DNA of 64,000 bases from NCBI GenBank assembly GCA_964016885.1, contig OZ024740.1:70432001-70496000 (forward strand), in the 5' to 3' direction. Position 1 is the first letter of the stretch. Every line of letters begins with the position of its first letter. The translations under genes were made by a program, and so were the position numbers. The stretch is from Eledone cirrhosa. Taxonomy: Eukaryota. Below, piece after piece: positions 6,145 through 60,128 of this stretch. The notes below the pieces were generated by a model. It saw nothing but the letters and a program-made list of their open reading frames with translations, was not told the DNA's origin and did no database searches.

Positions 6145-6300
6145 AATTGATATAGAGAGGTGGGTTGGAAGAGAGTTCCGTGTAGTAGATATAGAAAGGG
6201 GGATTGGGAGAGAATTTTGTATGGTTGATGTAGAGAGGGGGGAGAGTTTGGTGTTTTTTTATATAGAGAGGGGTATTGAAAGAGAGTTCCGTGTAGTAGT
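6145..6300. repeat. Degenerate ~30-33-bp minisatellite (..GAGAGTTCCGTGTAGTAGATATAGAGAGGGG..)
   Basis: Tandem units are visible. The reverse complement of the same unit occurs at 23060-23271 and 28940-28975. Confidence 0.7.
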
Positions 6301-23271: not shown

Positions 23272-23459
23272 TTGATATAGACGTGATTTACTTTGCTCCG
23301 GATTTTTACGGATTGTTGTCAAAAAAACTGTGAGTTTACTGATCAATTTAATAACATTGTTTGGTTTAGCCCCTTGCCTTGGCCGTCAGACGTTAAGTCA
23401 ACAAATTTTCGCCCCTTTCTGGGGCCAAATTTCATCTAAAAACTGTAGATTTGGTGGCA

Positions 23460-25233: not shown

Positions 25234-25275
25234 GTAATTTCCTTTCCTCTTCCTTTTTACCTCTTCAGCACCAAC

Positions 25276-28200
25276 ATGGCCAATATAAGAGTTGGATGTG
25301 TGAATGCACGCGGCTTGGGGATGTCCTGGAAACAGGGCAAACTCTTAAATGACCTCAGGTCGCACAGAGTGGATGTAATGGTTATTTGCGAGTACAGGAT
25401 CAGAAGCGAGCGCCAACTGGCCCCCATCTTCGACGACTTTGACATCTACGCATCTCTCTGTCAGCCGAGGGGTGGGGGTGGTGTTGTCGTTCTGCTGCTA
25501 AAATACCTGGGTCTTGGTACACCTGGACTCGGAGGGTCGACTGGTGGTTTTAGACGTCGGCAGTGGAGAAGGTGGAGCTTTCAGGCTGGTGGCAGCGTAT
25601 GCCCCATCTGGGACACCACGACCGGACTTCTTCCGACGCCTGGAGAATTTCCTGGGAACGTCTCGCTCCTTGCTTTTAGTGGGGGACTGGAATGGTATCC
25701 TGGATGCACGTTGGGACTATGTAGGGGCATGTCCCGATAGAGGGGGTGTAACAGCCTCAAACGATTAATCGGCCGATTTGATCTGGCCGATAGATATCGA
25801 CTGGATTTTTCGACTATGCCACGGTGGACGTGGAGTAATCGCAGCGGAACATCCAGGTCGTACCTAGATAGGTTCCTAGTTAGAAATAAGGATAGGGACA
25901 TATTAAGCTGTCCACGAATGTTCATGGTTGACTATTCGGATCACAAGTTGGTGACCGGAGTGGTCAACCTTGATAGAACTCATAGACAGGGACCCGGTTA
26001 CTGGAAGCTAAACTTGTCTTTACCGACAAACAAAGCTTACAGTAAGCGGATTAGCACACTAGTTAAGCAGCGTTTGACGGGGGCAATTGTCAATAACAGG
26101 TGGTGGGGCTCTCTCAAGAGAGAAATTAGAATAGAATCGATAGGTTTTAGTCGGGAATTAGCATCAGATAGGAATAGAACTGAAAGGGAATTAACAAATA
26201 GAGTAGAAGAGGCGATTAGGAGTGGCAACGTGGCCGGCGTGCTGGCGTCAAGAACGGCCCTAGACCAGTTCTTTGATGCGAAGCACGAGGGCTGCGTTGT
26301 CAGGAGTAAAATACGTGCTCTGGGTAACGAGGGAGCCAAAGCTGTTAGCTGGGCCCGAGTGACAGAGGCAAAAAGTAGAAACAAGTCCACGATTCGGTCT
26401 TTGAAGGACAGGATGGACGCGTGATCCTTGAACCTGAGCGGATGAGCGCGGCCTTTCAACGGCGCTTTGCACGACTGTTAGGGAGGGGCGGCGGGCCGGG
26501 TGGGGCCATGGATTTCGGTCCATACCTCGACGGTCTGGCGCGGCTCTCGGACGGGGAGGCGAAGTCCTGCGAGAGGCCGATTTCAGCCGCTGAAATAGGG
26601 GAAGCGCTGAGCCAATGCGTCAAACGCAAATCTCCGGGTCTCGATGGTCTACCATACGAACTTTATGTAGCGATGCCGGGCTTGTTCTCCGGTCTCCTCG
26701 AGGCGGTCTACTGCAACTGGCAACAGAACGGGAGAATTCCCAGTTCTGTGACCAAGGGCGTAGTCACGCTGGTGAGGAAGGACGAGAACAAGGGGGATGA
26801 CATAGATAACTTCAGGCCCATAACTCTGCTAAACACAGAGTTAAAGATTTTGGCCAAGGTGTTAGCGAAGAGGTTGGCGCTTGTCGTCGGGAACCTGGTG
26901 GGAGAAGCGCAGACATGCGCAATCCCGTCCAGGTCCATACACGACAACCTCCACCTCATGCGATACATCGTAGAGAGGGTAGGGAACGAACCCGGCTTTG
27001 GTGGGGCCCTGATCAACTTGGATCAATCTAAAGCGTTCGATAGGGTTGACCATCGGTACCTGGATGCGGTGCTCGCGGCGGCAGCTTCGGACCCGTTTTC
27101 AAGGGCTGGATTGCTGCAATGCACAGCAGCAACACCTGCTCGAGGGTCAAGGTGAACGGCTACCTCTCGGAGCCGTTCCAAATCACGCGATCCATTCGAC
27201 AGGGATGCCCTCTCTCCTCCCTCCTGTATGTGCTGGCGCTCGAGCCACTACTGAGGAAGCTGGAGCTGTTGCAGGGCGGTGTTGCGGAAAGCGGTGTCGG
27301 CCTACGCCGATGACGTGACAGTAATGGTGTCGTGCGCCTCGGAAATCGGGCAGATCGGCACCTTACTGGAGGAATATGAAAGGTTCACAGGAGCCAAGCT
27401 GAACCGGGACAAGTCCGTCGGTTTGCAACTCGGGACGTGGAGGGGCAAAACGATGCCCTCCGACGGTATCGTCGGACGCTGGACGGAGGGACTGGTGAAG
27501 CTGCTCGGGGTCTGATTCGGACCGGACCTCCAGGTGGAGAAAAACTGGGACGAGGTAACGAGCAAGGTGTTTGCACTCGCGCAGAAGTGGGCCGAGTGCA
27601 AACTATCCCTGAAAGGTCGAGCGGAGGTGGCGAACGCTTATATAGCGTCTGTCATCTACTACCGCTTGACCGTCGTGCCTTGCCCAGAGAAAACACTCGC
27701 CAAAATGGAGCGCGCGCTCTTCCGATTTCTTTGGAAGAAGCGGGCTCCTTTGGTGAGAAGATCCATCTGCTGTCAACACCCTTCGAACGGAGGGCTGGGG
27801 TTGCCGTGGATGACGATACGTAGATACGCATTAAGGCTACGGCACCTCCAGGTATTCCTCACCGGTCAGCCGGTGTGGGCCCTGTTTGTGAGGCGAGCCT
27901 TTCCGAGACTCGTCTCACTCACCGAGCTGCAATCCTGGGTCAAGCAAAGACCGAGAAAAGTGGGCGACTGGCACGTTGAATGTGCCCAGGCGCTGACGGC
28001 CCTCTAGCAAGCGGATCCGGCAATCAGTGGAGACTCAACCTCAACATTCTATAGAGGGTTGGTGCGCAGTAAGTGCGACGAAGCTTTCGGAGAGGCTCTG
28101 GGCATGGAGGAAGACGAGCTGGCCAGTCTGTTCGGTAGGACGTTTGGCCCGGGACCGATGGACAACTTCCAAAAGTCCCTGGCTTGGCAATGTTACCGAG

Positions 28201-28685
28201 GAGCTCTACCCGTTCGGGACAAGCTCTACAGACACGGGCGCCCGGGTAGGAACCCCTCGAAGAAGATCTGTCCAAGATTCGTGCGTGACAAGGAAACCGT
28301 GGCACATGCATTCGTACACTGCCCGGGCGTTGCTGACCTTTGGGGCTATGTAGAATGACTACTGTCGCGGGTGGGACCAATCCGGTTGACCACCGAGAAC
28401 ATTGTCACGATCAAACCGCCTCCCCCTTTCAAAAACGAAGGAGAGGCGGTTTTCCTCTGTGTGATAGCCATGGCGAAAGAAGTTGTATGGTGGACAAGGT
28501 TGAAAGGGCTGAGGTCAGACACCTATCTCTCCGGCCAACAACTGGTCTTTTTTTTCAAGTACCACTTTAGAAGAAGGATCAGAATGGAGAGAGAGGTGCT
28601 CTACCCCAGCAAGTTTTATGAAAGATGGGTGAAAGTAGCGAGAATGGCCCGAGTGAATGGGCCTTCTCTCTATATCAGCCTGTAG
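25276..28685 (+). pseudogene. ORF2 (APE-RT) with multiple frameshifts and stops
   Basis: Motifs GDWN, SDH, FRPITLLN, DQSKAFDRV, QGCPLS, YADD and CPR...H..C across the ORF pieces. Confidence 0.92.
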
Positions 28686-31850: not shown

Positions 31851-31906
31851 TGTTATTTCACTGAGGAACTGGAATCATATGCTTCCAGTTCCTCAGTGAA
31901 ATAACA
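31851..31906. repeat. Near-perfect 56-bp palindrome
   Basis: TGTTATTTCACTGAGGAACTGGAA-tcatatgc-TTCCAGTTCCTCAGTGAAATAACA. Confidence 0.9.
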
Positions 31907-31993
31907 ACCCAACCAGGAACTGGGCATATCAGAGTATTGACAAAATTATATACCTCAACAACATATGTACTTGTCTATACCACACTAATTCGG

Positions 31994-32093: not shown

Positions 32094-32150
<57 letters not shown>

Positions 32151-32156
32151 TCAAAG

Positions 32157-32864
32157 ATGACTCTAAAAACCGGTTTGTCTGTGTGTTTACATACAGAATA
32201 GCTGGCCACTCACAGTAAAGTGATCAGTGAAAAAAAACTTGGTACATCTACATATGTATACGTGTGTGTATTCATATACATACTAGTATTTCAGTATACA
32301 TATATGGATGTACATCTTTGACTTAATTGTTTGAGCGTCAGTCATACAAAAGTGAGTTACAAACGAAACGAAATTTAATTTCGTTTCGTTATTTGTTTTT
32401 ATCGTCTCCGTTGAACCGGTACTTACTCACACTCTATGCAAGTTGGTCTGCCCACTACTAATTTTCATAGAAAAAGCATATAGCGATATGTGCTTTTACG
32501 ATTCTCTAGAGAGGCCGGAAGATAGGTAAATATTGCTGATGAGTTGTAACAACAACGAAACTAGTTCAATATTCCTTGTCTGGCTTTCTGGAGAATAGAG
32601 GAAAGGTGTTTCCTCAAAAACCAGTATGACTCTAAAAACCGGTTTGTCTGTGTGTTTACATACAGAATAGCTGGCCACTCACAGTAAAGTGATCAGTGAA
32701 AAAAAACTTGGTACATCTACATATGTATACGTGTGTGTATTCATATACATACTAGTATTTCAGTATACATATATGGATGTACATCTTTGACTTAATTGTT
32801 TGAGCGTCAGTCATACAAAAGTGAGTTACAAACGAAACGAAATTTAATTTCGTTTCGTTATTTG

Positions 32865-32871
<7 letters not shown>
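32157..32871 (+). mobile_element. Non-coding 1.5-mer tandem element (469-nt period) carrying a hammerhead; retrozyme- or pseudo-LTR-like
   Basis: 32157-32402 is repeated at 32626-32871. (TA)n on both sides. The hammerhead lies in the single-copy part. Confidence 0.8.
32529..32573 (+). ncRNA. Type I hammerhead ribozyme (fully canonical core)
   Basis: AAUAUUG-CUGAUGA-GUUGU-aaca-ACAAC-GAAA-CUAG-UU-CAAUAUU. 7-bp helix I, 5-bp helix II, palindromic AACUAGUU helix III, GUU cleavage triplet. Confidence 0.92.
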
Positions 32872-37662: not shown

Positions 37663-38935
37663 ATGATTTCATTTATTAGCCACAAGGGCCGACATGTAGG
37701 GGACAATACAAAGACAGGGACAGTGGGGTTTACAATAAGGTCGAGTAAAAGTGCACAATGGCAAGACTAATTTAACAATGAAAATATAAAAATATAGAAT
37801 AAACTATGCATAAATATAACAAAATAAATTCCCCGATAGGGGGTGGACGACCTGGGGTGATTCGGGTACCCCACCAATCCTGAACCACTCTGCGCTTCTA
37901 GGGCACCCAGGGAGAGCACCCCTCTCCTCAAGTTAGCCAGCCTATAGGCGCATGGTCAGAGTAGGCCCATTCACACGAGCCATTCTCGCCACATTCACCC
38001 ACCTTTTAGCAAATGTACTGGGGGGCAGCACTTCTCTCTCCACCCTCACCCTCCTTTCCAGGTGAAACTTGAAGAAGTTGATGAGGGATTGGCCGAAGAG
38101 AAAAATGTTTGTCTTTAGTCCTTTCAACCTGGTCCACCATATAATCTCTTTCGCAACTGCCACCAGACAGAGGAAAATGTCCTGCTCTTCCTGACCTAAG
38201 GAAGGTGGCGGCTCGATCTTCACTATGGACTCGGCCGATAGCCGGATTCGTTCCACGCGCGACAGTAGCTGTTCGACATAACTCCACAAGTCAGTAATGC
38301 ACGGACATTGGACAAGTGCGTGCAAAACGGTTTCGTCGTTCTGTGCGCATCTTGGGCAGGTCCGTCTGACAGCACTTCCGTGCCTGTAGAGTTTATCCCG
38401 AACCGGCAGTGCCCCCCGGTAGCACTGCCAAGCGAGGGATTTCTGGAAATTGTCCATCTTCCCCGGCTCAAAAGTCCTCCGGTACAGACTGGTCAGTTCG
38501 ACTTTGTCGAGGCCCAAAGCTTCTCCGAGTGCGTCATCGCACTTGCCCACCACTAATCCTCTATAGAACTCGAGAGTGGAAGTTCCACTGATCGCATTTC
38601 CCGCTTGGTAGAGGGCAGTGAGTGCCTGGCAACATTCCAGGTGCCAGTCACCCAGTCTCGGTCTCTTCTTGACCCAGGACTGCAGCTCAGTCAAAGAAAT
38701 GAGCTGCGGAAAGACCCGTCTGATAAACGGCGACCACACCTGTTCACCATTGAGGCAGAATATCTGGAGATGTCGCAGCCTCAACGCATGTCTGCGCATC
38801 ATTAGCCACGGCATGCCCAGCCCTCTGCGTAGAGGGTGCTGGCAGCAGATGGACCGCCTCACCAACGGAACTTGTCCCCTCCACAAGAATTTGAAGAGGA
38901 GCCGTTCCAACTTGACGAGGCGCGGACGGGGGCAA
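37663..38935 (-). mobile_element. Tx1-clade LINE, family B, 5'-truncated (ORF2 C-terminus plus 3' UTR)
   Basis: The open frame 38935->37942 is homologous to the ORF2 C-terminus (SLAWQCYRGALPVRDKL, CPRC..ETVLHALVQC). 3' end CCCTTGTGGCTAATAAATGAAA. Confidence 0.9.
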
Positions 38936-38996
<61 letters not shown>

Positions 38997-39237
38997 TTTT
39001 CTTTATTAACCACAAGGGTTCACATAAAGTAGACATTAAGGACAGTACAGGACAATACAGGACGGTACAAATGGGCATTTCTGCGTGTAAAAAACAGAGG
39101 TTGAAATAAAATAACAAAGAAAAATTCCCCAATAGGGGGGAGACTTCCAAGGGACATTTGTGGAGAAAGCCCATTAAAAGACCACAGTGGCCCTGACCAC
39201 CAGGGCAAGTGCCCTCTCCCAGTTTTCCACCTTTAAT

Positions 39238-42200
39238 TTACAGACACATACTCAGAGAAGGCCCATTCATTCGGGCCATACTTGCTTCTCTCACCCATCT
39301 TTCAACAAAATGCTGGGAAGAGAGCACTTCCCTCTCTACCCTGATTTTCCTTTTCAAATGAAATTTGAAAAAGTTAATCAGGGCATCACCGAAGAGGTAA
39401 GTGCTCGTCTTCAGCCCTTTCAAACGTGTCCACCATACTATCTCTTTCGCCATGGCCACCAGACAGATAAAAACTGCCTGCCCTTCCAGGCTAAAGGAAG
39501 GGGGCGGGGCAATCCTCACGATGGACTCAGCTGATAGCTGGATAGGTCCTACACGTGACAGCAGGTGTTCGACATAAACCCACAAGTCAGCAATGCTCGG
39601 ACACTGGACGAGTGCGTGCAGGACGGTTTCGTCGCCCTGCGCGCATCTCGGACATGCCCGGCTGACGGCACCTCCATGCCTGTAGAGTTTATCCCGAACT
39701 GGCAAAGCTCCTCGGTAGCACTGCCAGGCCAGGGATTTCTGGAAGTTGTCCATAGGCCCCGGCCCGAAAGTCCTTCCGAAGAGATTGGCTAGTTGATTTT
39801 CGTCGACGCCTAGAGTTTCTCCAAGTACGTCGTCGCTCTTCCCCTCCACTAATCCCCTATAGAACGCCAAGGTGGAGTTTCCACCGATCACATTGCCCGA
39901 TTGGTCGAGGGCTGTGAGCGCCTGAAGACATTCCAGTCTCCAAGCGCTCCCTCTCGGTCTTCGCTTGACCCAGGACTGCAGCTCCGTCAAGGAGACGAGC
40001 TGGGGGAAAACGTGTCTTGCAAACGGCGACCACACCTGATCACCGTCGAGGAAGAGGTGGAGATGTCGTAGCCTGAGCGCGTGTCTGCGCATCATCAGCC
40101 ACGGCATGCCCAGCCCTCCACGTAGCGGGTGTTGACAGCAGATGGACCGCCTGACCATCGGAGCGCGTCCCTTCCACAAGAAGCGAAAGAGCAAACGCTC
40201 CAGCGCAGTCAGGCGGGGCTTAGGACAAGGTACGACGGTCAGGCGGTAGTAGATGACGGATGCGATGTACGCATTCGCCACCTTCGCTCGACCTTTCAGG
40301 GATAGCTTCCTCTCGGCCCATTTCTGGGTGAGAGAAGCCACCCTGCTCGTCACCTCGTCCCAGTTTTTGTCCGTCTGGAGGTCTGGACCGAACCAGACCC
40401 CTAGCAATTTAACCGGTCCGTCCGTCCAGCGCCCGACGACGCTGTTGGACGGCATGGACCTGCCTCTCCAGGTGCCGAGCTGCAGGCCCACTGACTTTTC
40501 CTGGTTGATCATTGCTCCTGTCACCGCTTCGTATTCTCTTAGTGTAGTGCCGATCGCCTCGATGTGTTTGGCGTTCGACACCACTACGGTGACATCGTCG
40601 GCATATGCTGACACGGATCTTCCGCATCCTAGTTCGCGCGGGACCCCCCTCAACGTCTCCAGTTTGTGCAGTAATGGCTCGAGAGTCAATACGTACAATA
40701 GGGACGAGAGGGGACATCCTTGGCGGACCGAGCGCATGATGTTGAACGGTTCCGAAAGGTGACCGTTCACTCTCACTACAGAGCAGATGTCGCTGTGCAT
40801 GGCAGCGATCCAGCCTCTGAAGACGGGCCCAAAGCCAGCCGCCCTCAGGACTGCCGCTAGGTAACGATGGTCGACCCTATCGAAGGCTTTCGACTGATCT
40901 AAATTGATCAAAGACCCACCCGTGCCAGGTTCCCTAGCTACCCTCTCTACGATGTATCGCATGAGGTGGAGGTTGTCGTGGATGGATCTGTCGGAAATGG
41001 CGCATGTCTGTGCCTCTCCCACCAGACCACCAACGACAAGCGCCAACCTCTTTGCTAGCACCTTGGCCAAAATCTTGAACTCTGTGTTTAGCAGAGTTAT
41101 GGGCCTAAAATTATCTATGTTATCCCCCTTGTTCGGATCCTTTCTCAGCAGCGCCACCGCTCCTCGGCTCACAGAGCTGGGAATTCTCCCGTTCTGTTGC
41201 CAGTTGCAGTAGACGTCCGCCAAGAGGCCTCCGAACAAGTTTGGCATTTGTACGTAAAGTTCATAGGGCAGACCATCCAAACCAGGCGATTTACCTCTTG
41301 TGCAACTAGTCATTGCATCCCGTACTTCAGCGGTTGTTATCGGCTTTTCGCAACACTCCGCCTCAGTGGCCGAAAGCCGCGGCAGTCCGTCGAGGTAGAC
41401 ACTAAAGTCCATCCCTCGATCCGGCCCGCCACTGCCCCCGAACAGTTGAGCGAAGTGTCGCTGAAAAGCTTCACACATTTGCCCGGGATCGAGTAGCATG
41501 CGCCCGTCGTGGTCCACCAAAGACCGGATCGTGGCTTTGTTGCCACGACGCGCCTCCGCCACTCGGGCCCATTGAACGGCTTTCGTCCCCTCGTGTCTGA
41601 GAGCACGCACCCTAGCTCTGACAACGCAGCCTTCGTGCTTTGCATTGAAGAATTGGTCAAGGGCCAATTTCGCCGCAAGTACGTCGGTCGCGATGCCTTT
41701 GCTAAGCGCCTCATCTAATTTTCTAACTAATTCTCCCTCTGCTCTATTTTTCTCTATTGCTAAAGTCTTACTAAACCTAATGGACTCTATTCTAATTGCT
41801 CTTTTCAGAGCAAACCACCACTTGTTGTTGACGATGGCCCCCGTCAACGCCCGCTTAACTAGTTCGCTAATCCGGTCTCTGTAGGCCTTGCGCGCTGGTA
41901 AGGACGCGTTTAGCTTCCAGTAGCCGGGTCCTCGTCTATGAAGCCTATCTAAGTCAAGCACACAGATCACGAATTTGTGGTCCGTGTAGCTGACTATCTT
42001 GAATTGTGGACAGCCTATGCTAGACCTATCTATTTCCCTACAAAATACTCTATCTAGATATGATCTGGATGACCCTATGCGATTTGTCCAAGTCCACATT
42101 GGTACATTCGGGAAATCCATTCGGTACCTGTCAGACAGTTCAAAACGTCTGAGCAGGTTGGTGAGACTCTTGCACCCTCCTTCCCTATCCACTAATCCCA

Positions 42201-42656
42201 CACAATCCCAGCGTGCATCTAAGATCCCGTTCCAGTCGCCCACTAACACTAAAGAGCGGGACGTTCCAAGAAAGGTCTCCAGACGCCAGAAGAAATCAGG
42301 CCGCCCTGCTCCTGTCGGGGCATAGACGGCCACTAACCTGAAAGCTTGCCCGTCTCCGCTGGTCACGTCCAGCACCACCAACTTACCCTCTGGGTCCAGG
42401 AAGATGGCCCGTATGGCAAGATCCAAACCTCTCCGAAAAAGCACAGCAACTCCTCCCCCGATCCCGGACGGCTGGGAGATGCGTACACATCGTAGCCGCC
42501 GAAGATCGGTGCGAAAGCCTGTGCTTCGGAGATTCTGGTCTCGCTGATGGCCACTACATCTATGTTTAGTGACCTGAGGTCGTTGAGCAGGTGGCCCTGC
42601 TTCCATGACGACCCCAAGCCACGCGCATTTATGCTGCCTATTCTGAGTGAGGTCAT
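39238..42656 (-). pseudogene. ORF2 (APE + RT + zinc knuckle), one frameshift near 42475
   Basis: The true N-terminus MTSLRIGSINARGLG is in ORF 42363..42656. The rest (GDWN, YTDH, QGCPLS, YADD, CPRC) is in 39238..42690. Confidence 0.92.
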
Positions 42657-42690
42657 GTTGAAAAGGAGTGGAAAAGATGGGAAAGACCAC

Positions 42691-44540
42691 TTACCTTACT
42701 TCTCGTAGGGGAAGGACGGCTTTTCCATCCTTTTCACTGCTTGTGGCCTCCTCAGGAAGGATGTCCTTATAAATCCTCCTGGAGAGTGCTTGTCGGAAGT
42801 CTCCGATGTCTTTGGGGAATTTTTGTTTTAGTGTCATGTACGTTTTCTGTGTGATGCGAGTGATTTGTATGTGTGGAGGTGGTGTGAATTTTGGGGTTGT
42901 TGTGTAGTCTTTTTCTGTGATGCTGGTGTTGTGTTGGATGTAGTGTAATAATTGCTTGTTGTTCAAATTTAATGCTGTGTAGTGTGTATCGTTTTGGTTG
43001 TTTTGTTTTGTTTGCGTTTGTTGTGGGTTTGTTTCTGTTTCGCTTTTTGGTGACTTTTGTGGTGTAGGTGATGGTGGTGCTGGGGATAATGATGGTGATG
43101 GTGTTGGTGTTTGGGTTGATGGGGTTGGTGATGCTGGTGTGGATGGTGGCATATCTGTCCTAACTTTTTTGTTTCTTAGTTTATTTGTTTCCCTCTGTAT
43201 TTTGTTTTTGGAGGGGGAAGGAAGAGAATTTTTTCTATTTTGGTTTCTTTTTTTTTTTCCGGATATCGTTTCCCACTCCTCGTCGTCACAATCTGTCTCC
43301 AGTTGTGATAGGCCGGGGAGTGGAAAATCCTCCACAGCCGTTAGTTTTGGTTGTGGTGTGGTGGATGGTGTAGGCGCTGGTGCTAGTTCTGAAGCGTTGG
43401 ATGCTGGTGGTGTTGGTTTTGCTGGTGGTGGTAGTGGTGTTGGTTTTGCTACTGTTGCTGGGGTTGTTGCTGTTATAGTTGCTTCTGTTGTTGCTGCTAC
43501 AGTTGTTGCTGCCATCTCTGCTACTGGTGGTGTTGATGGTTGTGTCACTGGGGTGGGTAGGAGAGGTGGCCTCAACCTTTTAGCCTGAGGGCAGAAAGCC
43601 CTTAGGTGGGTTCCTTCACCACAAACGACACACCTAGGTCTTCTGCCCTCGACAATTACCGTGAGGTGGCTGCCGTCAGTGAGTTCTATTACCTCTGGGA
43701 TCTCCTCAATGCTTTTTTGGTCCGCTTGGATCAGGAGCTCCATCCCAGATCCGGACCAGTTTTCCTGCTTTTCTTTTGCTACTGCTATTATTTTCGTGTT
43801 GGCTTCGATGCCGGCGAGGACAGCCGCTATTAGCCAGGGAATTTCGATGGCCGGTGGAACGTGGGTCACCCTGATCTTTACGAGTCTCTGGCCACAATAG
43901 CTTGGGACGAGTGTGAGGTCGTCACTTTTTAATGGGGCCATGGAGTGTTCTCTAGCCTCCTCTGGTGTTTCAAAGAACACATCCACGGTTCCATACTTTT
44001 GCCCACGTCTGATGTGGGTTTTTCTTGCCCACACATGTCCCAAAGCTTTTTGGATTTGGGACTCGGATGCCCGTTCCACTCGGCGCGATTTTACATTTAT
44101 TGTTCTATACGACACGGTGCACAGGCGCCGATGCTCCATTTTATTAGGTGGGGGGTGAGGCTGACCCTGTACCCATCTTTCTTTACCATTTGTTTGGCAT
44201 TTTCTAAATCTTCTTGAGTTACCGTGAACGCTTCGAATTGTTTTGCTACGATGGCGAAACTGAGGGTCGGTTTTATAATGTCATTGTTGTTGTTGTTGCT
44301 ATCGTTAATATTAATTTTATTTTCAGTTGTGGTGGTGGTGACGTCAGTCGTCTTTGGTGGGGAAGAGTCCATTTTGCTTGATTTCATTTCGACGTCACGA
44401 GTTAATTTATTTTTTTCTTCTTTTGTTTCTGTTGTCGCGGTGGTGGTGGTGGTGGTGGTTGTCGCGGTGGTGGTGGTGGTGGAGGGTTTAACACCTGCAG
44501 TCATTGGTAATGGCGGGAAATGAATGTCTGCCTGAGACAA
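42691..44540 (-). pseudogene. ORF1 (gag-like, CVVCGEGTHLRAFC knuckle), one frameshift at the G-run near 44150
   Basis: ORFs 44097..44540 and 42691..44139 overlap at a homopolymer. The start codon is uncertain. Confidence 0.85.
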
Positions 44541-44884
44541 ATTTAAAATATTGCTACTGCGTATATTTTTTTTGTGTTGGCAAACGTAGTAACATTTACA
44601 ATGGTGGTGTCGGTGTGAGGTGTTATTTTGTGAGGAAGGCTTTCAGCTGCTTCGTGCAGAGGGGAATTAGCCATTTTTTTTTCAAAGAAATTTTTGGATA
44701 ATAATAAAAGTTAAAATTTTGGGCACAAGGCCCCAATCTTTTTGGGTGTCCTTTTCGGAAAACAATGTATGTGTGCTTATAAACAGTTTACAATAAAATT
44801 TTCCATAAATGGCAATTTTTAAACAGACGGAAATAACAAACCTTTGCGGAGCTCACGATAATACGATTTCCTACGTAGGTCGCC

Positions 44885-48264: not shown

Positions 48265-48508
48265 GATATATTTACATCCAGCAGAGGTCAACTTTGCTTT
48301 CCATTCTTTCTAGGTCGATAAATAAGGAACTAGTCCAGTACTACAATCGATTCTGCCTTTATATCTATTTTCTATCTGTTCCTCTCTCTCTCTGAATTCG
48401 ACTCCTTTCAGACCTGGAGAGGAATGGATTCCGCCAGGTTTAAATGCCCAATAAACGGGGTTTCAGCAACCCTACAACTCCATCAGGAGTAAAGGGCTCA
48501 TAAGCTGG

Positions 48509-48592
<84 letters not shown>

Positions 48593-48689
48593 CGTGTGTG
48601 TATACGTGTGCATACTTACATTTATGTATCAGCTGTGCTAGGGTGAGAAATAAAATTCTAATATATATACATATACTCTTCTCCGCATT

Positions 48690-50520
<1,831 letters not shown>

Positions 50521-52052: not shown

Positions 52053-52263
52053 TATTTCGTTTCTGAATTTGTTTAGCAAGTTTCTTTATCTGAAAACGTG
52101 TGTTGAAACCGATATTGTTATACTTTGGGAGGGTCATGTTGCCAATAAGAAACACATGCACCAGTTGCTTTCACTTCAATTTATTATAAATTGAATTTAT
52201 AAATTCAGGAATTTATAAATTTCCAGTTGGTTGGTTCCACAACCAGACGATTGATCATATATT

Positions 52264-52306
52264 GTCAAAGTTCTTTCATCACACATTCTGTGACCTCTTC
52301 AGTGAC
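52264..52306 (-). ncRNA. Minimal type I hammerhead ribozyme
   Basis: GUCA-CUGAAGA-G-GUCACA-gaaug-UGUGAU-GAAA-GAAC-UU-UGAC. Confidence 0.7.
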
Positions 52307-52858
52307 TGGGGATTATTTTCTTTGTTTTTGTGCCTCACCTTTGTTCTGTCCTACGCGATCTTGTTTTTGTGTGTGTTGTGTGCTTAGTTTGCGCATGTGT
52401 TACATCCGGGTGTCTGTGTGTGTTTATATTTGTTTATTTATTTGTTTATTTACATGTTACTGGTTGGTTGTTTGTTCTATGTGTGTGTGTGTGTTTTCAT
52501 TTTGTCCTTAATTGTAAGTTGTGATGTTGCTATTCCATTCATGTTTTCTATTTAATTTTGGTTGGAGTTCATTTATGTTTATTGCCTCATAAATGAACTC
52601 CAACCAAAATTAAATAGAAAATATGAGTGGAATAGCAACATCACAACTTACAATTAAGGACAAAATGAAAACACACACACACACATAGAACAAACAACCA
52701 ACCAGTAACATGTAAATAAACAAATAAATAAACAAATATAAACACACACAGACACCCGGATGTAACACATGCGCAAACTAAGCACAAAACACACACAAAA
52801 ACAAGATGGCGTAGGACAGAACAAAGGAGAGGCACAAAAACAAAGAAAAGAAACCCCA

Positions 52859-52901
52859 GTCACTGAAGAGGTCACAGAATGTGTGAGGAAAGAACTTTGA
52901 C
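52859..52901 (+). ncRNA. Mirror copy of the minimal hammerhead (base of helix II mutated)
   Basis: GUCA-CUGAAGA-G-GUCACA-gaaug-UGUGAG-GAAA-GAAC-UU-UGAC. Confidence 0.6.
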
Positions 52902-53033
52902 AATATATGAACAATCGTCTGGTTGTGGAACCAACCAACCAACCGTAAATTTATAAATTTAATTTATAATAAGTTGAAGTGAAAGCAACTGGTGCGTGTG
53001 TTTCCTATTGGCAACATGACCCTCCCAAAGCAT

Positions 53034-53115
<82 letters not shown>

Positions 53116-53131
53116 TAAAATAACAGATTAA

Positions 53132-53182
53132 AGTTTAAGCAAAGAATCGCTGCTTTCACCCTTAACGGGATCTTCTGAAACT
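53132..53182 (-). ncRNA. Variant hammerhead motif (inverted pLTR copy)
   Basis: Reverse complement of 56700-56750. Confidence 0.5.
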
Positions 53183-53633
53183 AACAAAGTCAATCTGTAA
53201 ACGCAGAAGTGGATATTTCAAAAAACGCTGCAACCGGAGGAAAACAGGAAGACGATACTTTGGTCCGTGGAAACGTCCGCTGGCAAAGAACGGGAAAAAC
53301 GAATATAATACGTCATTAATAGGAGCGTTGAAAACCAATTACGCGCAAAGACAGAACCACGTTTATGGTATAAGAGAGGTCGTAGACTAATATTCTCTCA
53401 AATGTGGTTCATAGAGACGTTCTCTGGCAATGAACGAAAAAAACCAGGATAATACGTCATATGTGGAGCGTGGAGAACAATAGCACGCAAAGACAAAACC
53501 ACGTAAATGGTATAGCAGAAGTCGTAGACTAAAATTCTAACTAGGAGACCGAATGAATCTCCGATACAGAGTTAAGAACAAAGTAAATAAATACAATACA
53601 GAAGTAATAGAAATAAATAAATACATACACGCA

Positions 53634-55763
53634 ATGCAGAAACAACATCTGAATATTTCTACAGAGAACATACCCGTACCAAGCAGGAAAACATACCTAA
53701 AACTCCTGATACAGAAAACAGACGCGTTCATTAAAAGGTTGCGTTGGCGTGCCTTTTATTTCGATAATCCGCGAAAAGCAGACAACAAACAGGATAAATT
53801 TGGATTTAAAACCTATAATAACCCCCCGTGTAACCCAGCATTGCTACTCTTCGAAAATGATGTCTTGGAACTCATTCGGAGTATCAAATTTCGGAATAGG
53901 AGCAATTCCTTCCAGCAAGACCTGAAGAATAGAATTTTTTCTATTAAGGATTCTAATGCCGTGCACGTCCATTCCGACAAAACTGGCAACCTATATCAAG
54001 TGGAGCGCAGTACTTACCATCAACTACTACATAATGCTGTAACTAAGGATTACCGTAAAACTAATCGGTGCGTCATCAATGAAATCAACGATGCTGGGTT
54101 TAAAATCACATCTGATCTCAACATCCTGGACCGGACCGAACCTCTGGACCCTATTTCTCCCCACTTTACCCTGAAGGATCACAAATCCAATTTTCCGAAC
54201 AACCCCTCTATTCGGCTTATTAACCCTACGAAGACCGATTTAGGTAGACTTAGTAAAACGATTCTCGATGGAATTATACCTGAAATTAGAAGTTTGGCCC
54301 CTCTTGCACTGTGGAACAATTCTTTCGCGGTGATTGATTGGTTCAACGGCATATGTAACAAGGAACATTGCCGTTTCATCCAATTCGACATCAACAATTA
54401 CTACTCCTCCATCACTTTACCACTTCTCCTTAGAGCTATCAATTTCGCTAAAACACTCACAGTGGTTAAGGATTTCGAAGTTGATGTCATCCTCAATGCC
54501 CGTAAGTCGGTGATTAATTTCGACGACTCTATTTGGATTAAAAAATCCAATAGTACCCCATTCGACGTGAGTATGGGCGCCAGTGATTCCGCGGAGGTTA
54601 CTGATCTTATCGGCCTATTCCTTCGTTTCTCTATCAAGGACGAATTCCCCAACGCGGGCGGTGGTTTGTACCGTGACGATGGTCTTTTGACCATGGTTAA
54701 GAGCGGACCTCGTGCTTGCGACAGGTTCAGAAAAGAACTCACAGCCTTCTTTAAAGGCTTCAACATCTCTATACAGGTTGAGGCCAATCTCTCGGTCGTT
54801 AATTACCTCGACGTTACCCTCAATTTATTGAATGGGTTGTAGTACCCGTATAGAAAGCCGAATGATACGCTTAATTACATAAGTAAGCATTCCAACCATC
54901 CTGCCAGCATAACCAAGAACCTGGTAAGAAACGTTTCGTTGAGGCTTTCCCGTCTTTCCACCAACGAGCGTATTTTCAACGACCATTCCACTTATTACAA
55001 TGAAGCTCTTGCTCGAAGTGGATTTGTCGATAAGGTAGCATATACAGAGTACGAAAATAGACCTAGAAGAAATAGATCCCGTCGCATTTGTTGGTATAAC
55101 CCACCATATAATATGGAGGTGGCCACACCATTAGCTAAGATCTTTCTTTCCCTTATTACGAAGCATTTTCCCCCTACACATAAATATAGTAAAAATTTTA
55201 ATAGAAATACTATTAAAATTTCTTACTCTACGACTCCTAACCTTGCACATAACATCACAGCTTCAAATTTAGCTAAACTACCTAGCCGTAGGAACACGTG
55301 CAACCCTGTAGCTAGTACTAACTGTAATTGTAGGAATCGGGTTGATTGCCCCCTATCCGGGAAATGCCTCTCTAGTAACATTGTCTACAAATGTAAGGTT
55401 GTAACACCCACGTCCCGTAGGGCCTACATAGGATTAACCGCCAATAGATTCAAGCAGCGTCTTTACATGCATACCCATTCTTTTCGTTACCCTCTAAGAA
55501 GGAATATGACGTCACTTTCAGCTTATATCTGGAGTCTAAAAGACAACCACACCCAATATAAGTTACACTGGGAGATCCTAGCTAGGGCTAGATCGTATAA
55601 CGGAAATAAAAGACCATGTGACCTCTGCGCCGCTGAGGCCCTGGAAATACTCTACGCCACAGACCACATCTTAAACAAAAAATCTGAGGCAATTTCGGTT
55701 TGTAAACATAAATTGCACAAAACTTTCTTGTATTACAGCCCCACGTTATACCCTAACGGATAA
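53634..55763 (+). pseudogene. PLE reverse transcriptase-GIY-YIG endonuclease ORF with one in-frame TAG (54840-54842)
   Basis: Motifs STENIPVP, FIKRLRWRA, IRLINP, QFDINNYYSSI, MGASDSAEV, GLYRDDGL, YLDVTLNL, YPYRKPN..SNHP, CNCR..CPLSGKC, IVYKC..AYIGLT..FKQR, CDLC. The frame continues across the stop. Confidence 0.9.
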
Positions 55764-56699
55764 TACGATCTATACGTGGATAGTTTACGTCTTGATGTGG
55801 GAGCTAAGAATATGTTTTGTTTATACCATTACTTATTTGCATAGGTAAGTATATATTACCCGTATGTTTTGTGAAGGTACGTATACCTTCTCGTACGTAT
55901 ATTTGATTGTTTATGTTATGGCGTATAATTTTATATATTCTGGTACATATGGTTCGGCTATGTGTATACGGGAGTTTTGCGTCTGTGTGAGTTTGCTGGT
56001 TCGTACGTATGTGGGTGTGTGTATATGTGTACTTCATGTTTTGGTTGACTTACGTCTCCGAACATTCGTGTATTTACATGTAGGTATGTGTGTGCGCTTG
56101 TTATATACGTATTTATTTTTTTATATACGTTTATATAATTATTTATTTATTTGTATACACGCATACACACACACATATTTATATGTGCGTGGTTTTGTAT
56201 ACCTATGGTAAGTGTTTTGCGTATGCTTGTGTATGTACGTATTTGTTTGCGTGTATGTATTTATTTATTTCTATTACTTCTGTATTGTATTTATTTACTT
56301 TGTTCCTAACTCTGTATCGGAGATTCATTCAGTCTCCTAGTTAGAATTTTAGTCTACGACTTCTGCTATACCATTTACGTGGTTTTGTCTTTGCGTGCTA
56401 TTGTTCTCCACGCTCCACATATGACGTATTATCTTGGGTTTTTTCGTTCATTGCTAGAGAACGTCTCTATGAACCACCTTTGAGAGAACATTAGTCTACG
56501 ACCTCTCTTATACCATAAACGTGGTTCTGTCTTTGCGCGTAATTGGTTTTCAACGCTCCTATTAATGACGTATTATATTCGTTTTTTCCCGTTCTTTGCC
56601 AGCGAACGTTTCCACGAACCGAAGTATCGTCTTCCTGTTTTCCTCCGGTTGCAACGTTTTTTGAAATATCCACTTCTGCGTTTACAGACTGACTTTGTT

Positions 56700-56750
56700 A
56701 GTTTCAGAAGATCCCGTTAAGGGTGAAAGCAGCGATTCTTTGCTTAAACT
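56700..56750 (+). ncRNA. Variant type I hammerhead motif at the end of the PLE 3' pLTR
   Basis: AGUUU-CAGAAGA-U-CCC-guuaa-GGG-U-GAAA-GCA-gcgauucuu-UGC-UU-AAACU. All three helices form, but the core has U4->A. Confidence 0.55.
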
Positions 56751-56852
56751 TTAATCTGTTATTTTAATAAATATTTGCTCTACGGTTCTTATATATTTGA
56801 TATATATTCATCCTTATCGAGCCCTCTTTGGATTTTAGTCTTCAAATTTATT

Positions 56853-56883
<31 letters not shown>

Positions 56884-57112
56884 TTATATACAGTATATAT
56901 AAATATAAGTATGTATACGTACATACATATATGTATACAGACGTACAGTAGTATGTATATACATACATACATGCACACATATATATATATGTACGTATGG
57001 GCTTACCGAACATTTTTTATAATGTTTGGTTTGTTTGTAAACAAACAGCCCGAATTAAGCCGTACAGTGTTCGGCAACCATCGTTGCCCTTTTGTTCAAC
57101 ACTGACAAAGGA

Positions 57113-57155
57113 ACGATGAACTAGTTTCTATCTTATTAGCTGTCATCAGCACCGT
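57113..57155 (-). ncRNA. Type I hammerhead ribozyme motif
   Basis: ACGGUG-CUGAUGA-C-AGCU-aaua-AGAU-A-GAAA-CUAG-UU-CAUCGU. Confidence 0.7.
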
Positions 57156-57333
57156 ATACCTTCCTGTCAATCGATTGAACGTTTGAAAGTATATACTTTC
57201 CTTATGCATATTTATCGTTTTCGGTACGCCCGGCCGACTAACTCACTCGATATGCAAATTAAGCTGCTCAGCCGTTAATATGCATAAGGAAAGTATATAC
57301 TTTCAAACGTTCAATCGATTGACAGGAAGGTAT

Positions 57334-57376
57334 ACGGTGCTGATGACAACTAATAAGCTAGAAACTAGTTCATCGT
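57334..57376 (+). ncRNA. Type I hammerhead ribozyme motif
   Basis: ACGGUG-CUGAUGA-C-AACU-aaua-AGCU-A-GAAA-CUAG-UU-CAUCGU. Confidence 0.7.
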
Positions 57377-57716
57377 TCCTTTGTCAGTGTTGAACAAAAA
57401 TGCAACGATGGTTGCCGAACACTGTACGGCTTAATTCGGGCTGTTTGTTTACAAACAAACCAAACATTATAATAAATGTTCGGTAAGCCCATACGTACAT
57501 ATATATATATGTGTGCATGTATGTATATACATACTACTGTACGTCTGTATACATACATATATCTATGTACGCATGCATACTTATATTTAAGTATCAGCCG
57601 TACTAAGAATGAGAAATTAAATTTCATTTTGTTCTATTTATATATACATATACATAGTTATGTAATAAACAACATAATTATTTCATTTATTTCATTCATA
57701 CATATATACACACACG

Positions 57717-57786
<70 letters not shown>

Positions 57787-57791
57787 CATAT

Positions 57792-57856
<65 letters not shown>

Positions 57857-57872
57857 CATATACACACACACG

Positions 57873-57940
<68 letters not shown>

Positions 57941-58019
57941 CATACAGACATATATATGCGGTGGCGTTTGTGTTTATTAATAGTGACGATTTCCTTTGAA
58001 GTAAACGTTCCCTAATAAT

Positions 58020-58265
58020 AATTGCTTCTTTCTTTGGCACATGGCCAGTAATTTGAAGGTAATGGGGAAAGTCGATTGAATTGACCTCAGTGCATTACTG
58101 GTACTTTATTTTATAGACCCCTTAAGGAGGAAAGACAAAGCTAACCTCAGAAGGATTTAAACTCTGAACGTAAAGGGCCGTAACTATATACGCTGATTAA
58201 TAATAATTGTTTCTACTTTTGGCACAAGGCCAGCAATCACCCCCAGTATATTACTGGTGCTTTAT
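58020..58265 (-). mobile_element. SINE family S1 copy plus a tail fragment
   Basis: Reverse-complement S1 body and tails. Confidence 0.7.
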
Positions 58266-58672
58266 TACGCTCATTAATAATAGTAAATATTATTTTGACT
58301 TAACAAAGAATATTTGAATTTTTAATTCAGTGCATGTTTATTATAACAAAATGGAAATGATCCGATCGTCAGGTTGCATCAAGGAAACTATATTTCCATT
58401 GGTAATTTTTTGCTAATACTATAAGCCTTCGTAAATACTGGCAGAAGCGGCATCGAATGGGGGAGGGATGTGAATTCAGAACGTACAGAGCGAGATACCG
58501 TAAAGCATCCCGTCCAACGTTTCAACAATGCCACTAATCCACCGTTTCTAGACTGATACTTTATATATCAACTCTAAAAAGATGAAAGGCAACGTTGACC
58601 TTGGTAGTATTTGAATAAGTGAGCAGAAAGTCTACGGATTTGCCGCTCATAAAACAAACACATACACACGCG

Positions 58673-58751
<79 letters not shown>

Positions 58752-58845
58752 TTTCGTATCTCCAAGGAAATACGGTTTTAGGAAGCTGTAGCTATGCAAA
58801 CACCGGGGGGCTAACGCCCTCTGGTGATGTCCAGCAGAAGCAAGG

Positions 58846-58898
58846 GGGACAATGGTCTATGCATTTCAGGCTTAACTGGCCTTCGTCAGGACGGTCCC
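58846..58898 (-). ncRNA. Type I hammerhead ribozyme
   Basis: GGGAC-c-GUC-CUGACGA-AGGC-caguuaa-GCCU-GAAA-UGCA-UA-GAC-cauu-GUCCC. Canonical core, palindromic AUGCAU helix III, helix I with an internal loop. Confidence 0.82.
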
Positions 58899-58989
58899 TC
58901 CCACCGCTTGCGACTGCTGGACTAGAAGACAGCTGAGAATATATACTTTTCTCGTCTGTGTAAATGAGGTGATTAATCTCATTTGCATA

Positions 58990-59800
58990 TGAATACGTAC
59001 ATACATATATGTATACAGACGTACAGTAGTATGTATATATATATACATACATGCACACATATATATATGTACGTATGGGTTTACCGAACCTTTATTATAA
59101 TGTTCGGTTTGTTTGTAAACAAACACCTCGATTAAGCCGTACAGCCTTCGGCAACCATCGTTGCCCTTTTGTTCAACACTGACAAAGGAACGATGAACTA
59201 GTTTACAAACAAACCGAACATTATAATAAATATTCGGTAAACCCATACGTACATATGTACATGTGTGCATGTATGTATATATATACATACTACTGTACGT
59301 CTGTATACATATATGTATGTACGTATACATACTTATATTTAAGTATCAGCCGTACTAAGAGTGAGAAATGAAATTCTTTTCCATTTATTGTTTTCGGTAC
59401 GCCCGGCCGACTAACTCACTCGAAATGCAAATTAGGCTGTTCAGCCGTTAATATGCATAAGGAAAGTATATACTTTCAAACGTTCAATGATCTGACAGGA
59501 AGGTATACTGTGCTGACGATAGCTAATAAGCTTGAAACTAGTTCATCGTTCCTTTGTCAGTGTTGAACAAAACGGCAACGATGGTTGCCGAACACTGTAC
59601 GGTTTAATTCGGGCTGTTTGTTTACAACCAAACCGAACATTATAATAAATGTTCGGTAAACCCATACGTACATATATATGTGTGTGCATGTATGTATATA
59701 TATCTACATACAACTGTACGTCTGTATACATATATGTACGTACGTATACATACTTATCAGCCGTACTAAGAGTGAGAAATGAAATTTCATTTCATTCTTT
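58990..59800. mobile_element. Second locus of the ~410-nt hammerhead unit: inverted partial, direct partial, then full tandem copy
   Basis: ATCAGCCGTACTAAGAGTGAGAAATGAAATT occurs at 59345 and 59756 (period 411). Inverted arm 58990-59204. Confidence 0.85.
59507..59549 (+). ncRNA. Type I hammerhead ribozyme motif
   Basis: ACUGUG-CUGACGA-U-AGCU-aaua-AGCU-U-GAAA-CUAG-UU-CAUCGU. Confidence 0.72.
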
Positions 59801-59835
59801 TCTCTCTCTATATATATATATATACACACACACAC

Positions 59836-59889
<54 letters not shown>

Positions 59890-59917
59890 GTATGTATGTG
59901 TGAGTATATATATATAC

Positions 59918-59970
<53 letters not shown>

Positions 59971-59973
59971 ATG

Positions 59974-60041
<68 letters not shown>

Positions 60042-60071
60042 TATATGTATGTATGTTATGTATGTTATGTA

Positions 60072-60128
<57 letters not shown>

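What the first reader, a model, noticed from the sequence alone, without database searches (positions are those of the whole stretch)
56900..59800. Second hammerhead unit family (~411 nt) in palindromic and tandem arrangements, distantly related to the 469-nt unit
Seen: three hammerheads (57113-, 57334+, 59507+) have the same GAAA-CUAG-UU helix III as the 32529 ribozyme. The units share colinear blocks with the 469-nt unit: TTTATCGT..CCGG..ACTCAC..ATGCAA, TCAGYCRTAC.AARAGTGAG, and a terminal GAAA.GAAATT/TTTC.TTTC hairpin just before (TA)n. The end of one unit runs straight into the start of the next at ~59380. Inference: two diverged members of one ribozyme-bearing non-autonomous retroelement lineage, with conserved structure.
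Basis: partly seen in the sequence, partly recalled or inferred. Interest (0 to 1): 0.78.

Follow-up and report, generated by a model that had tools for sequence, protein, structure and literature searches.

The report
Ribozyme retrotransposons carrying U6-like promoter
A 429-base repeat with a hammerhead-ribozyme motif, estimated at tens of thousands of copies, shares its predicted fold with sibling families and carries the motif found upstream of the host's U6 genes; it is likely a parasitic RNA copied into TA microsatellites by Penelope-like retrotransposons, and both its promoter and its helper can now be tested.

Summary
It is a dispersed family (about 37,000 insertions, 95% CI 18,000-69,000) with a type I hammerhead motif. 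It is homologous to the 469-nt family outside the ribozyme (z 8.4), and 11 of 30 tested pairs show compensatory changes. A third related family (about 323 nt) lies inside the interval.

This is a non-LTR retrozyme by sequence; cleavage and circles are untested.

(1) Two-armed insertions have one short and one long outer end: 21 of 22 (429 family), 13 of 13 (469 family), and 19 of 20 for the adjacent Hydra-like Penelope element. This points to Penelope-type machinery.

(2) Each unit begins with the motif found at -77 of host U6 genes (3 of 17 U6 loci, 0 of 23 U1/U2 upstreams), followed by a TATA box. The spacing is 4-5 nt shorter than in U6.

(3) Arms of up to 31 units fit a circular template.

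The neighbouring Hydra-like family as the specific helper is only suggested: one chimera, no shared sequence.

The parts
56900..57212 (-). Inverted arm of the 429-nt unit (unit positions 68-378), outer end at the short (S) site; hammerhead core at 57149 with damaged helix II; lacks the promoter-like motif
57210..57638 (+). Full 429-nt unit, long (L) end into TA-rich DNA; core at 57340, predicted cut after 57370; helix II damaged
57251..57299 (+). U6-like motif (ATGCAAAT at 57252) and TATATA at 57294; predicted promoter
58753..58987 (-). Arm of a third related family (about 323 nt) with its own hammerhead (core 58889, UGCA palindrome, A17), S end in (TA)n; joined directly to the next arm
58988..59204 (-). 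Inverted arm of the 429-nt unit (positions 153-370), no catalytic core
59201..59382 (+). 5'-truncated upstream copy (positions 238-429) forming a partial tandem
59383..59802 (+). Full unit (420 nt, 10-nt deletion); motif at 59425, TATATA at 59467, core at 59513 with family-type helix II, predicted cut after 59543, L end
58675..58752 (.). (TA)n at the left end of the second insertion
59809..60123 (.). (TA)n at the right end of the second insertion
32149..32871 (+). Sibling 469-nt family: tiny inverted S piece (about 13 nt at 32149), partial unit 32157-32402, full unit 32403-32871, core 32536, between (TA)n runs
   Evidence: the tiny piece is read directly
53635..56860 (+). Hydra-like Penelope element (RT, CxCx5C linker, C-terminal GIY-YIG motif; in-frame stop at 54840), L end about 40 nt from the 56900 arm; candidate helper
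53108..53634 (-). Inverted 3' arm of that Penelope-like element, S end in (TA)n

Best explanation
The unit is a 429-nt non-coding repeat with a type I hammerhead motif, found in tandem and inverted copies in (TA)n, and it is likely a non-LTR retrozyme that is transcribed from its own U6-like promoter and copied into DNA by Penelope-like retrotransposon proteins. Shown: the family, its fold shared with the 469-nt and 323-nt families, the target, the two preferred 3' ends, the one-short-one-long rule, multimeric arms and the motif match to host U6. Inferred (0.6): Pol III starts near unit position 115 and usually stops at the T run at the unit end. Inferred (0.65): occasional read-through gives two hammerheads, which cut as a dimer through the ACUAGU palindrome; the monomer is ligated to a circle that now holds the promoter internally. 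Inferred (0.8): a Penelope-type endonuclease/RT cuts (TA)n, and the two target ends prime at two fixed RNA sites (L, the U-rich run after the last hairpin; S, the loop of a small hairpin 50-75 nt upstream); the two cDNAs are joined head to head. Inferred (0.4): the helper for the 429 family is the neighbouring Hydra-like family.
For: One S plus one L outer end in 21 of 22 classifiable 429-family insertions (p 5e-6), 13 of 13 for the 469 family, 9 of 12 for the 323 family and 19 of 20 for the Hydra-like element. This matches the 'tail at one end' of Penelope-like insertions (Craig et al., passages). Either arm can be the longer one (31 vs under 1 unit; 5 vs 24; 7 vs 13), and in one array all 18 full units on both arms are identical. 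5' truncations do not pile up at the ribozyme cut. The motif TATGC(A/T)AAT(T/G/C)AG lies at -76 to -78 of 3 of 17 U6 loci, in 0 of 23 U1/U2 upstreams, and all 11 of 11 hits in 800 kb of evenly spaced genome lie in the four related families. No T4 run lies between predicted start and unit end in 4 of 4 families (shuffles mean 3.5, P 0.0125). The motif hairpin has 0 of 8 compensatory pairs against 11 of 22 elsewhere. Direct chimeras: Penelope tail to 429 unit in L004, and 323 arm to 429 arm in the window.
Against: Motif-to-TATA spacing is 41-43 nt against 46-48 in U6. The window's 469 variant, which fills near-identical arrays, has ATGCAAGT (2 of 16 distinct contexts). T4 runs also lie in the promoter part of the 429 and 469 units, which read-through must pass. 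U1/U2 also have a TATA-like box and a TCAG element at a similar spacing, so Pol II is possible. Position 17 is U in 30 of 48 cores and helix II starts with a mismatch, which suggests slow cleavage (GUU weakness is recalled). One 31-unit array shows recurrent mosaic variants, not a single monomer template. Arm-to-arm identity in the 429 family is only weakly above background in most of 32 comparisons. The Hydra-like family shares no clear sequence with the units (best blastn E 0.057; nhmmer E 0.01 on its UTR alone) and has no hammerhead. The L004 chimera is the only one of its kind and has two long ends. The reverse association test is not significant (7 of 86, p 0.17).
Confidence: 0.7

Rival explanations
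1. Same element and same Penelope-type integration, but the template is a linear multimeric read-through RNA (Pol II or leaky Pol III), or is rebuilt by template jumping; the ribozyme is slow or dispensable and circles play no part.
For: The Hydra-like element also forms more-than-unit tandems without a detectable hammerhead. U17 and a mismatched helix II base. Mosaic, near-periodic variants in one array. Only 1 of 9 Xenopus retrozyme dimers cleaved in vitro (preprint 10.64898/2026.07.22.740005).
Against: Arrays of 18 identical and 26 nearly identical units split over both arms would need read-through of many T5 runs. Ribozyme stems I and II keep pairing through 6 of 8 double changes between families.
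Confidence: 0.2
2. The units are orphan pseudo-LTRs (3' ends) of an autonomous Penelope-like family not yet found, and not an independent non-autonomous lineage.
For: Same tail and inversion anatomy as Penelope-like elements; Xenopus retrozymes match pseudo-LTRs in 24 of 57 families. The Hydra UTR has a weak look-alike of the TATA hairpin at 55827-55860.
Against: The end of a unit joins the start of a unit with no ORF between. No 429-family locus showed a unit continuous with an RT/EN frame, and 14 other EN-like matches had no homologous 3' region.
Confidence: 0.06
3. A satellite spread by DNA-level processes (unequal crossing-over, DNA rolling circle); the folds are by-products of AT-rich palindromes.
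For: Near-periodic variants in the 31-unit array; weak within-family covariation.
Against: Fixed 3' ends with variable 5' truncation and the S+L rule; fold z -5.7, -9.8 and -5.1; cross-family compensatory changes.
Confidence: 0.04

Closest known systems
Metazoan non-LTR retrozymes (Cervera and de la Pena 2020, PMC7229834; coral, Mytilus mussel, axolotl)
   Same: Short AT-rich tandem units with one type I hammerhead, no ORF, highly paired fold. The short palindromic helix III and the U-U mismatch at the base of helix II resemble the axolotl motifs.
   Different: That paper showed cleavage and circles, which are untested here. In its main text 'inverted' and 'microsatellite' occur 0 times, and the helper is only proposed. 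Here the inverted two-armed insertions, the S+L rule, the (TA)n target and a promoter motif are visible.
Vertebrate retrozymes as non-autonomous Penelope-like derivatives (Li, Clavereau, Pollet, bioRxiv 10.64898/2026.07.22.740005)
   Same: Same proposal: retrozymes borrow Penelope-like machinery.
   Different: Their evidence is co-occurrence and pseudo-LTR similarity in Xenopus; no mollusc was sampled. Here no pseudo-LTR source was found, and the evidence is insertion anatomy and chimeras.
Hydra clade of Penelope-like elements (Craig et al. 2021, PMC8557442)
   Same: The neighbour has DKT, CxCx5C, a C-terminal GIY-YIG motif, (TA)n insertion, partial tandems, inverted copies and a one-sided tail.
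   Different: Hydra elements are said to carry hammerheads universally; none was found in this family. Tails here are 50-90 nt against the 30-40 nt described.
Newt satellite 2 and schistosome hammerhead repeats
   Same: Hammerhead repeats with internal promoters: snRNA-type Pol II in newt, Pol III in schistosome (cited in PMC2220036 and PMC6765202).
   Different: Here the motif matches host U6 and not U1/U2 upstream DNA. The primary newt papers were not held, so the motifs could not be compared.
MRC1-type non-autonomous Chlamys elements
   Same: Non-coding, pseudo-LTR forming, multicopy head-to-tail insertions.
   Different: They resemble their autonomous partner at the 3' end, and most Chlamys lack hammerheads; here the reverse holds.

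Membership tests
Non-LTR retrozyme | Type I hammerhead motif in the unit | tested here: met
   Core, stems I-III; Rfam HH9 below gathering score
Non-LTR retrozyme | Tandem unit of about 150-450 nt, GC under 50% | tested here: met
   Period 429; A+T 65% in the predicted transcript; the sibling is 469 nt, slightly longer
Non-LTR retrozyme | Two consecutive units with complete hammerheads (Li et al. 'active' rule) | tested here: met
   Not in the window; met at C1:43052138/43052572 for the 429 family and in many 469 arrays
Non-LTR retrozyme | No coding capacity | tested here: met
   Only microsatellite-derived frames of 120 aa or more overlap the units; PBS and PPT were not searched
Non-LTR retrozyme | Self-cleavage in vitro | not testable with these tools
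   Bench assay
Non-LTR retrozyme | Expressed as linear and circular RNA | not testable with these tools
   No RNA holder listed
Non-LTR retrozyme | Target-site duplication when present | tested here: inconclusive
   Flanks are (TA)n, so a duplication cannot be read
Non-autonomous Penelope-like element | Partial tandem, inverted 5'-truncated copy, tail on one end | tested here: met
Non-autonomous Penelope-like element | Sequence similarity to the pseudo-LTR of an autonomous family | tested here: inconclusive
   Best E 0.057 and 0.01 against the neighbour; none in 14 other EN-like matches; the genome's other families were not surveyed in full
Hydra clade (neighbour 53635-56860) | DKT, CxCx5C linker, C-terminal GIY-YIG, (TA)n target, single ORF | tested here: met
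   Motifs read; 713-aa open frames elsewhere; relatives of about 700 aa with DKT and CxCx5C. Pfam, NCBIfam and PDB gave no hit
Hydra clade (neighbour 53635-56860) | Hammerhead in the terminal repeat | tested here: not met
   No core in 55700-56870 on either strand; hence called Hydra-like
Hydra clade (neighbour 53635-56860) | RT phylogeny with named Hydra families | not tested
   No named reference set was fetched
U6-type (type 3 Pol III) promoter | Host U6 upstream motif plus TATA box | tested here: met
U6-type (type 3 Pol III) promoter | Same motif-to-TATA spacing as host U6 | tested here: not met
   41-43 against 46-48 nt; hence called U6-like
U6-type (type 3 Pol III) promoter | No T4 run inside the transcript, T run at its end | tested here: met
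   0 runs in 4 families, P 0.0125; T4, T5, T6 at unit ends
U6-type (type 3 Pol III) promoter | Drives Pol III transcription | not testable with these tools
   Needs 5' end mapping and reporter assays

The most novel reading that the evidence does not exclude
A lineage of at least four ribozyme retroelements captured the host U6 promoter and keeps this normally external promoter through retrotransposition by circular permutation: read-through, dimeric hammerhead cutting and ligation place it inside the circle. A hammerhead-less Hydra-clade enzyme then copies one circle from two fixed priming sites at once, giving one-short-one-long palindromic arrays. This would name promoter, template and helper for an animal retrozyme in one system.
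Probability: 0.33. Interest if true: 0.78.

Novelty: new variant of a known kind. Interest (0 to 1): 0.58.

Why it matters
Which enzyme moves animal retrozymes and what transcribes them are open points in the papers read. This genome offers old (429), very young (469) and sibling (323, a fourth) families, a near-strict two-ended insertion rule shared with an abundant Penelope-like element, and a promoter motif that matches host U6. Each gives a simple assay. The rule also constrains how Penelope-like elements integrate, which Craig et al. list as awaiting an in vitro system. The U6 upstream motif is a practical lead for guide-RNA expression in this animal.

Tried and rejected
RNA evidence: no RNA holder listed. 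Contigs of two coded runs of unknown kind cover the unit with many variants and say nothing on RNA. Rfam at gathering score: 0 hits; the microRNA matches are artefacts of TA hairpins. Fold-back copying of one arm into the other: rejected, because the S arm can be 31 units against under 1 unit in the L arm. Linear template with a 5' end at the ribozyme cut: no pile-up of truncations at unit position 161 among 103 values. More Penelope/unit chimeras of the L004 type: none. A hammerhead in the Hydra-like element: none. Pol II snRNA origin of the motif: absent from 23 U1/U2 upstreams. Family libraries and PDB for the Penelope-like protein: nothing. One search aligned the two ORF halves to each other and is uninformative. 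Earlier scan notes: nothing. PMC1636495 had no passage on GUU. The 323-family 3' end does not align significantly with the other two (z 0.6-0.8); only its 5' part does (z 6.2-6.3).

Full report
Setting. The window lies in a 3.0-Gb animal genome. Its repeats resemble those of octopods; this is recalled and untested.

Observation. The period is 429 nt. The interval holds two insertions. The first, 56900-57638, is an inverted arm (unit positions 68-378) joined head to head to a full unit. The second, 58753-59802, is an arm of a third family, an inverted core-less arm, a partial unit and a full unit. Both lie in TA-rich microsatellite. Helix II has 2 of 4 pairs broken in both cores of the palindrome; the 59513 core has the commonest family form.

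Abundance. A DNA search gave 2,668 candidates, of which 40 were scored, at 95-96% identity. In 80 evenly spaced 10-kb stretches, mostly from the largest chromosomes, there were 10 insertions in 9 stretches: about 37,000 per genome (95% CI 18,000-69,000). The 469 family was in 0 of those 80 but forms arrays; its 40 best matches were all 100% identical to the window query. The exact core pattern occurs 8,190 times against 0 for the control.

Relation between families. Outside the ribozyme rod and the TA hairpin the 429 and 469 units align at z 8.4. Both fold, at z -5.7 and -9.8, into the same order of elements: 5' hairpin, long-range helix, motif hairpin, TATA hairpin, ribozyme rod, hairpin, closing helix with inner hairpins, small hairpin, terminal hairpin, U-rich run. 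On 10 sequences from the two families, 11 of 30 named pairs change on both sides and 98.7% of cells pair; slid controls give 1-3 pairs. These are two lineages, not ten events. The third family (about 323 nt, core at 58889) has a similar layout, z -5.1, and a homologous 5' part (z 6.2 and 6.3), but its 3' end does not align. A profile of the 5' part found a fourth family in L124 and L232.

Ribozyme. It is type I. Helix III is the palindrome ACUAGU, the kind described as needing dimers (PMC4209133, parts 1-2 of 4 read; PMC7229834 passages). Position 17 is U in 30, A in 17 and other in 1 of 48 distinct cores. Activity is untested.

Insertion anatomy. 3' ends fall at two sites: S, in the loop of the small hairpin (position about 378), and L, in the U-rich run after the terminal hairpin (about 429). 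Of 53 clusters examined, 30 had two inverted arms and 22 of these could be classified; 21 of 22 have one S and one L outer end. Of 16 stretches for the 469 family, 14 had two arms and 13 showed both ends; 13 of 13 are S+L, with S in the homologous hairpin. The 323 family gives 9 of 12 (2 of 14 unclassified). The loci were best matches to the queries, so old decayed copies are under-sampled. Either arm may be long: 31 units against under 1, 5 against 24, 7 against 13. In the last array all 18 full units are identical across both arms; the 31-unit array instead shows recurrent mosaic variants. Unequal arms exclude fold-back copying. 5' truncations are scattered, with no peak at the cut site. This fits two target ends priming on a circular or long multimeric RNA (inference).

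Neighbouring Penelope-like element. [quoted passage not shown] These are Hydra-clade marks (Craig et al.: section 11 and passages read). It forms partial tandems with a fixed junction and obeys the same rule, 19 of 20 (6 of 26 unclassified). It lies within about 1.5 kb of 9 of 47 unit loci against 7% background (p 0.005); the reverse test gives 7 of 86 against 5% (p 0.17). In the random stretches 5 of 9 with a unit also hold it (p 0.007). A shared target can explain this. One direct chimera exists (L004), and two searches found no second. It has no hammerhead and no clear shared sequence. Other Penelope-like families and many other hammerhead families are present. Penelope-type machinery is therefore likely; this family as helper is a 0.4 guess, and less for the younger 469 family.

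Promoter-like block. The 5' strand of the motif hairpin is conserved in sequence in all four families: 37 of 45, 10 of 16 and 16 of 20 distinct contexts carry the commonest form, and the hairpin has 0 of 8 compensatory pairs. Host U6 genes carry the same motif at -76 to -78 with TATA at -30 in 3 of 17 loci: two single loci and the tandem cluster. Of the 14 without it, 10 are 5'-truncated and probably retrocopies; 4 are full length. It is absent from the 110 nt upstream of 23 distinct U1/U2 copies. All 11 hits in the 800-kb sample are in the four families. A start 30 nt after TATA falls just ahead of the ribozyme core, and no T4 run follows until the unit end (0 against 3.5 expected, P 0.0125). 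Against this: spacing is 41-43 against 46-48 nt, the window's young 469 variant has one change in the motif, and U1/U2 also have TATA-like boxes. PSE plus TATA defines metazoan U6 promoters (PMC1761439, abstract and introduction read). Internal promoters are known for newt and schistosome hammerhead repeats (passages in PMC2220036 and PMC6765202); the primary papers were not held.

Mechanism. Most likely: transcription from the unit's own promoter; read-through into the next unit; dimeric cleavage; ligation to a circle that contains the promoter; twin priming at L and S from a cut in (TA)n by a Penelope-like protein; joining of the two cDNAs by microhomology. The chimeric second insertion, with a 323-family S end and a 429-family L end joined directly, fits one event with a template switch, though nested insertion with loss of a flank is not excluded. 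Confidence in the core is 0.7.

Comparison and novelty. It works like, and by sequence belongs to, the non-LTR retrozymes (PMC7229834: passages and sections 14 and 17 read). Their link to Penelope-like elements is already argued in a 2026 preprint (parts 1-3 of 5 read; its supplements are closed and may list similar families). Ten literature searches showed no report of cephalopod retrozymes, of the S+L rule as a count, or of a U6-like promoter in a retrozyme. A 2026 Octopus vulgaris repeat annotation has 0 mentions of ribozyme, retrozyme or Hydra (passages). The library lacks most subscription journals and Repbase. Verdict: a new variant of a known kind, interest 0.58.

Noticed in passing
window 55835-55860: The Hydra-like 3' UTR has a reversed octamer, a splice-donor-like AG|GTAAGT and TATATA; the tandem junction has a branch-point-like and acceptor-like stretch just before the ORF. 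Possibly the pseudo-LTR intron known in Penelope.
   Followed up: partly
window 56330-56620 and 53273-53538: 142-nt tandem repeats in the 3' UTR of the Hydra-like element; function unknown.
   Followed up: no
window 22809(-), 31999(+), 52302(-), 52864(+): Further hammerhead-like cores of other families; 52060-53030 is an inverted pair of one abundant family.
   Followed up: partly
L003, L009, L023, L044, L100, L123, L127, L138, L205, L212 and others: More than 15 distinct type I hammerhead cores in about 1 Mb of loci, often as inverted pairs; several have U at position 17.
   Followed up: no
L232:100-950, L124:3253-3500, L361:5292-5548: Fourth related family with repeated octamer-like motifs and a longer helix III; about 19,000 insertions estimated.
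   Followed up: partly
G000:C1:5738000-5752800 (L242, L243): 31-unit arm of the 469 family with variants recurring at roughly 7-unit spacing: a higher-order repeat or a mixed template pool.
   Followed up: partly
L282-L341: Host snRNA promoters: U6 has the octamer-like motif at -77 and TATA at -30; U1/U2 have an AATTAAAT-like box near -90, TCAG near -57 and a TATA-like box near -31. U1, U2 and U6 occur in tandem clusters.
   Followed up: partly
window 2000-6300, 23400-28400, 37900-44600: Three L1/Tx1-like LINE copies with AP endonuclease and RT frames, one with a 1,150-aa open frame at 39238-42690; family name recalled.
   Followed up: no
window 48493-49780: Broken RT and GIY-YIG-like frames of another, probably Penelope/Poseidon-type, element; assignment recalled.
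   Followed up: no
window 31851-31916: A perfect palindrome around a CTGAGGA...GAAA core readable on both strands.
   Followed up: no
L288: A SINE-like insertion sits between a U6 copy and its upstream motif.
   Followed up: no
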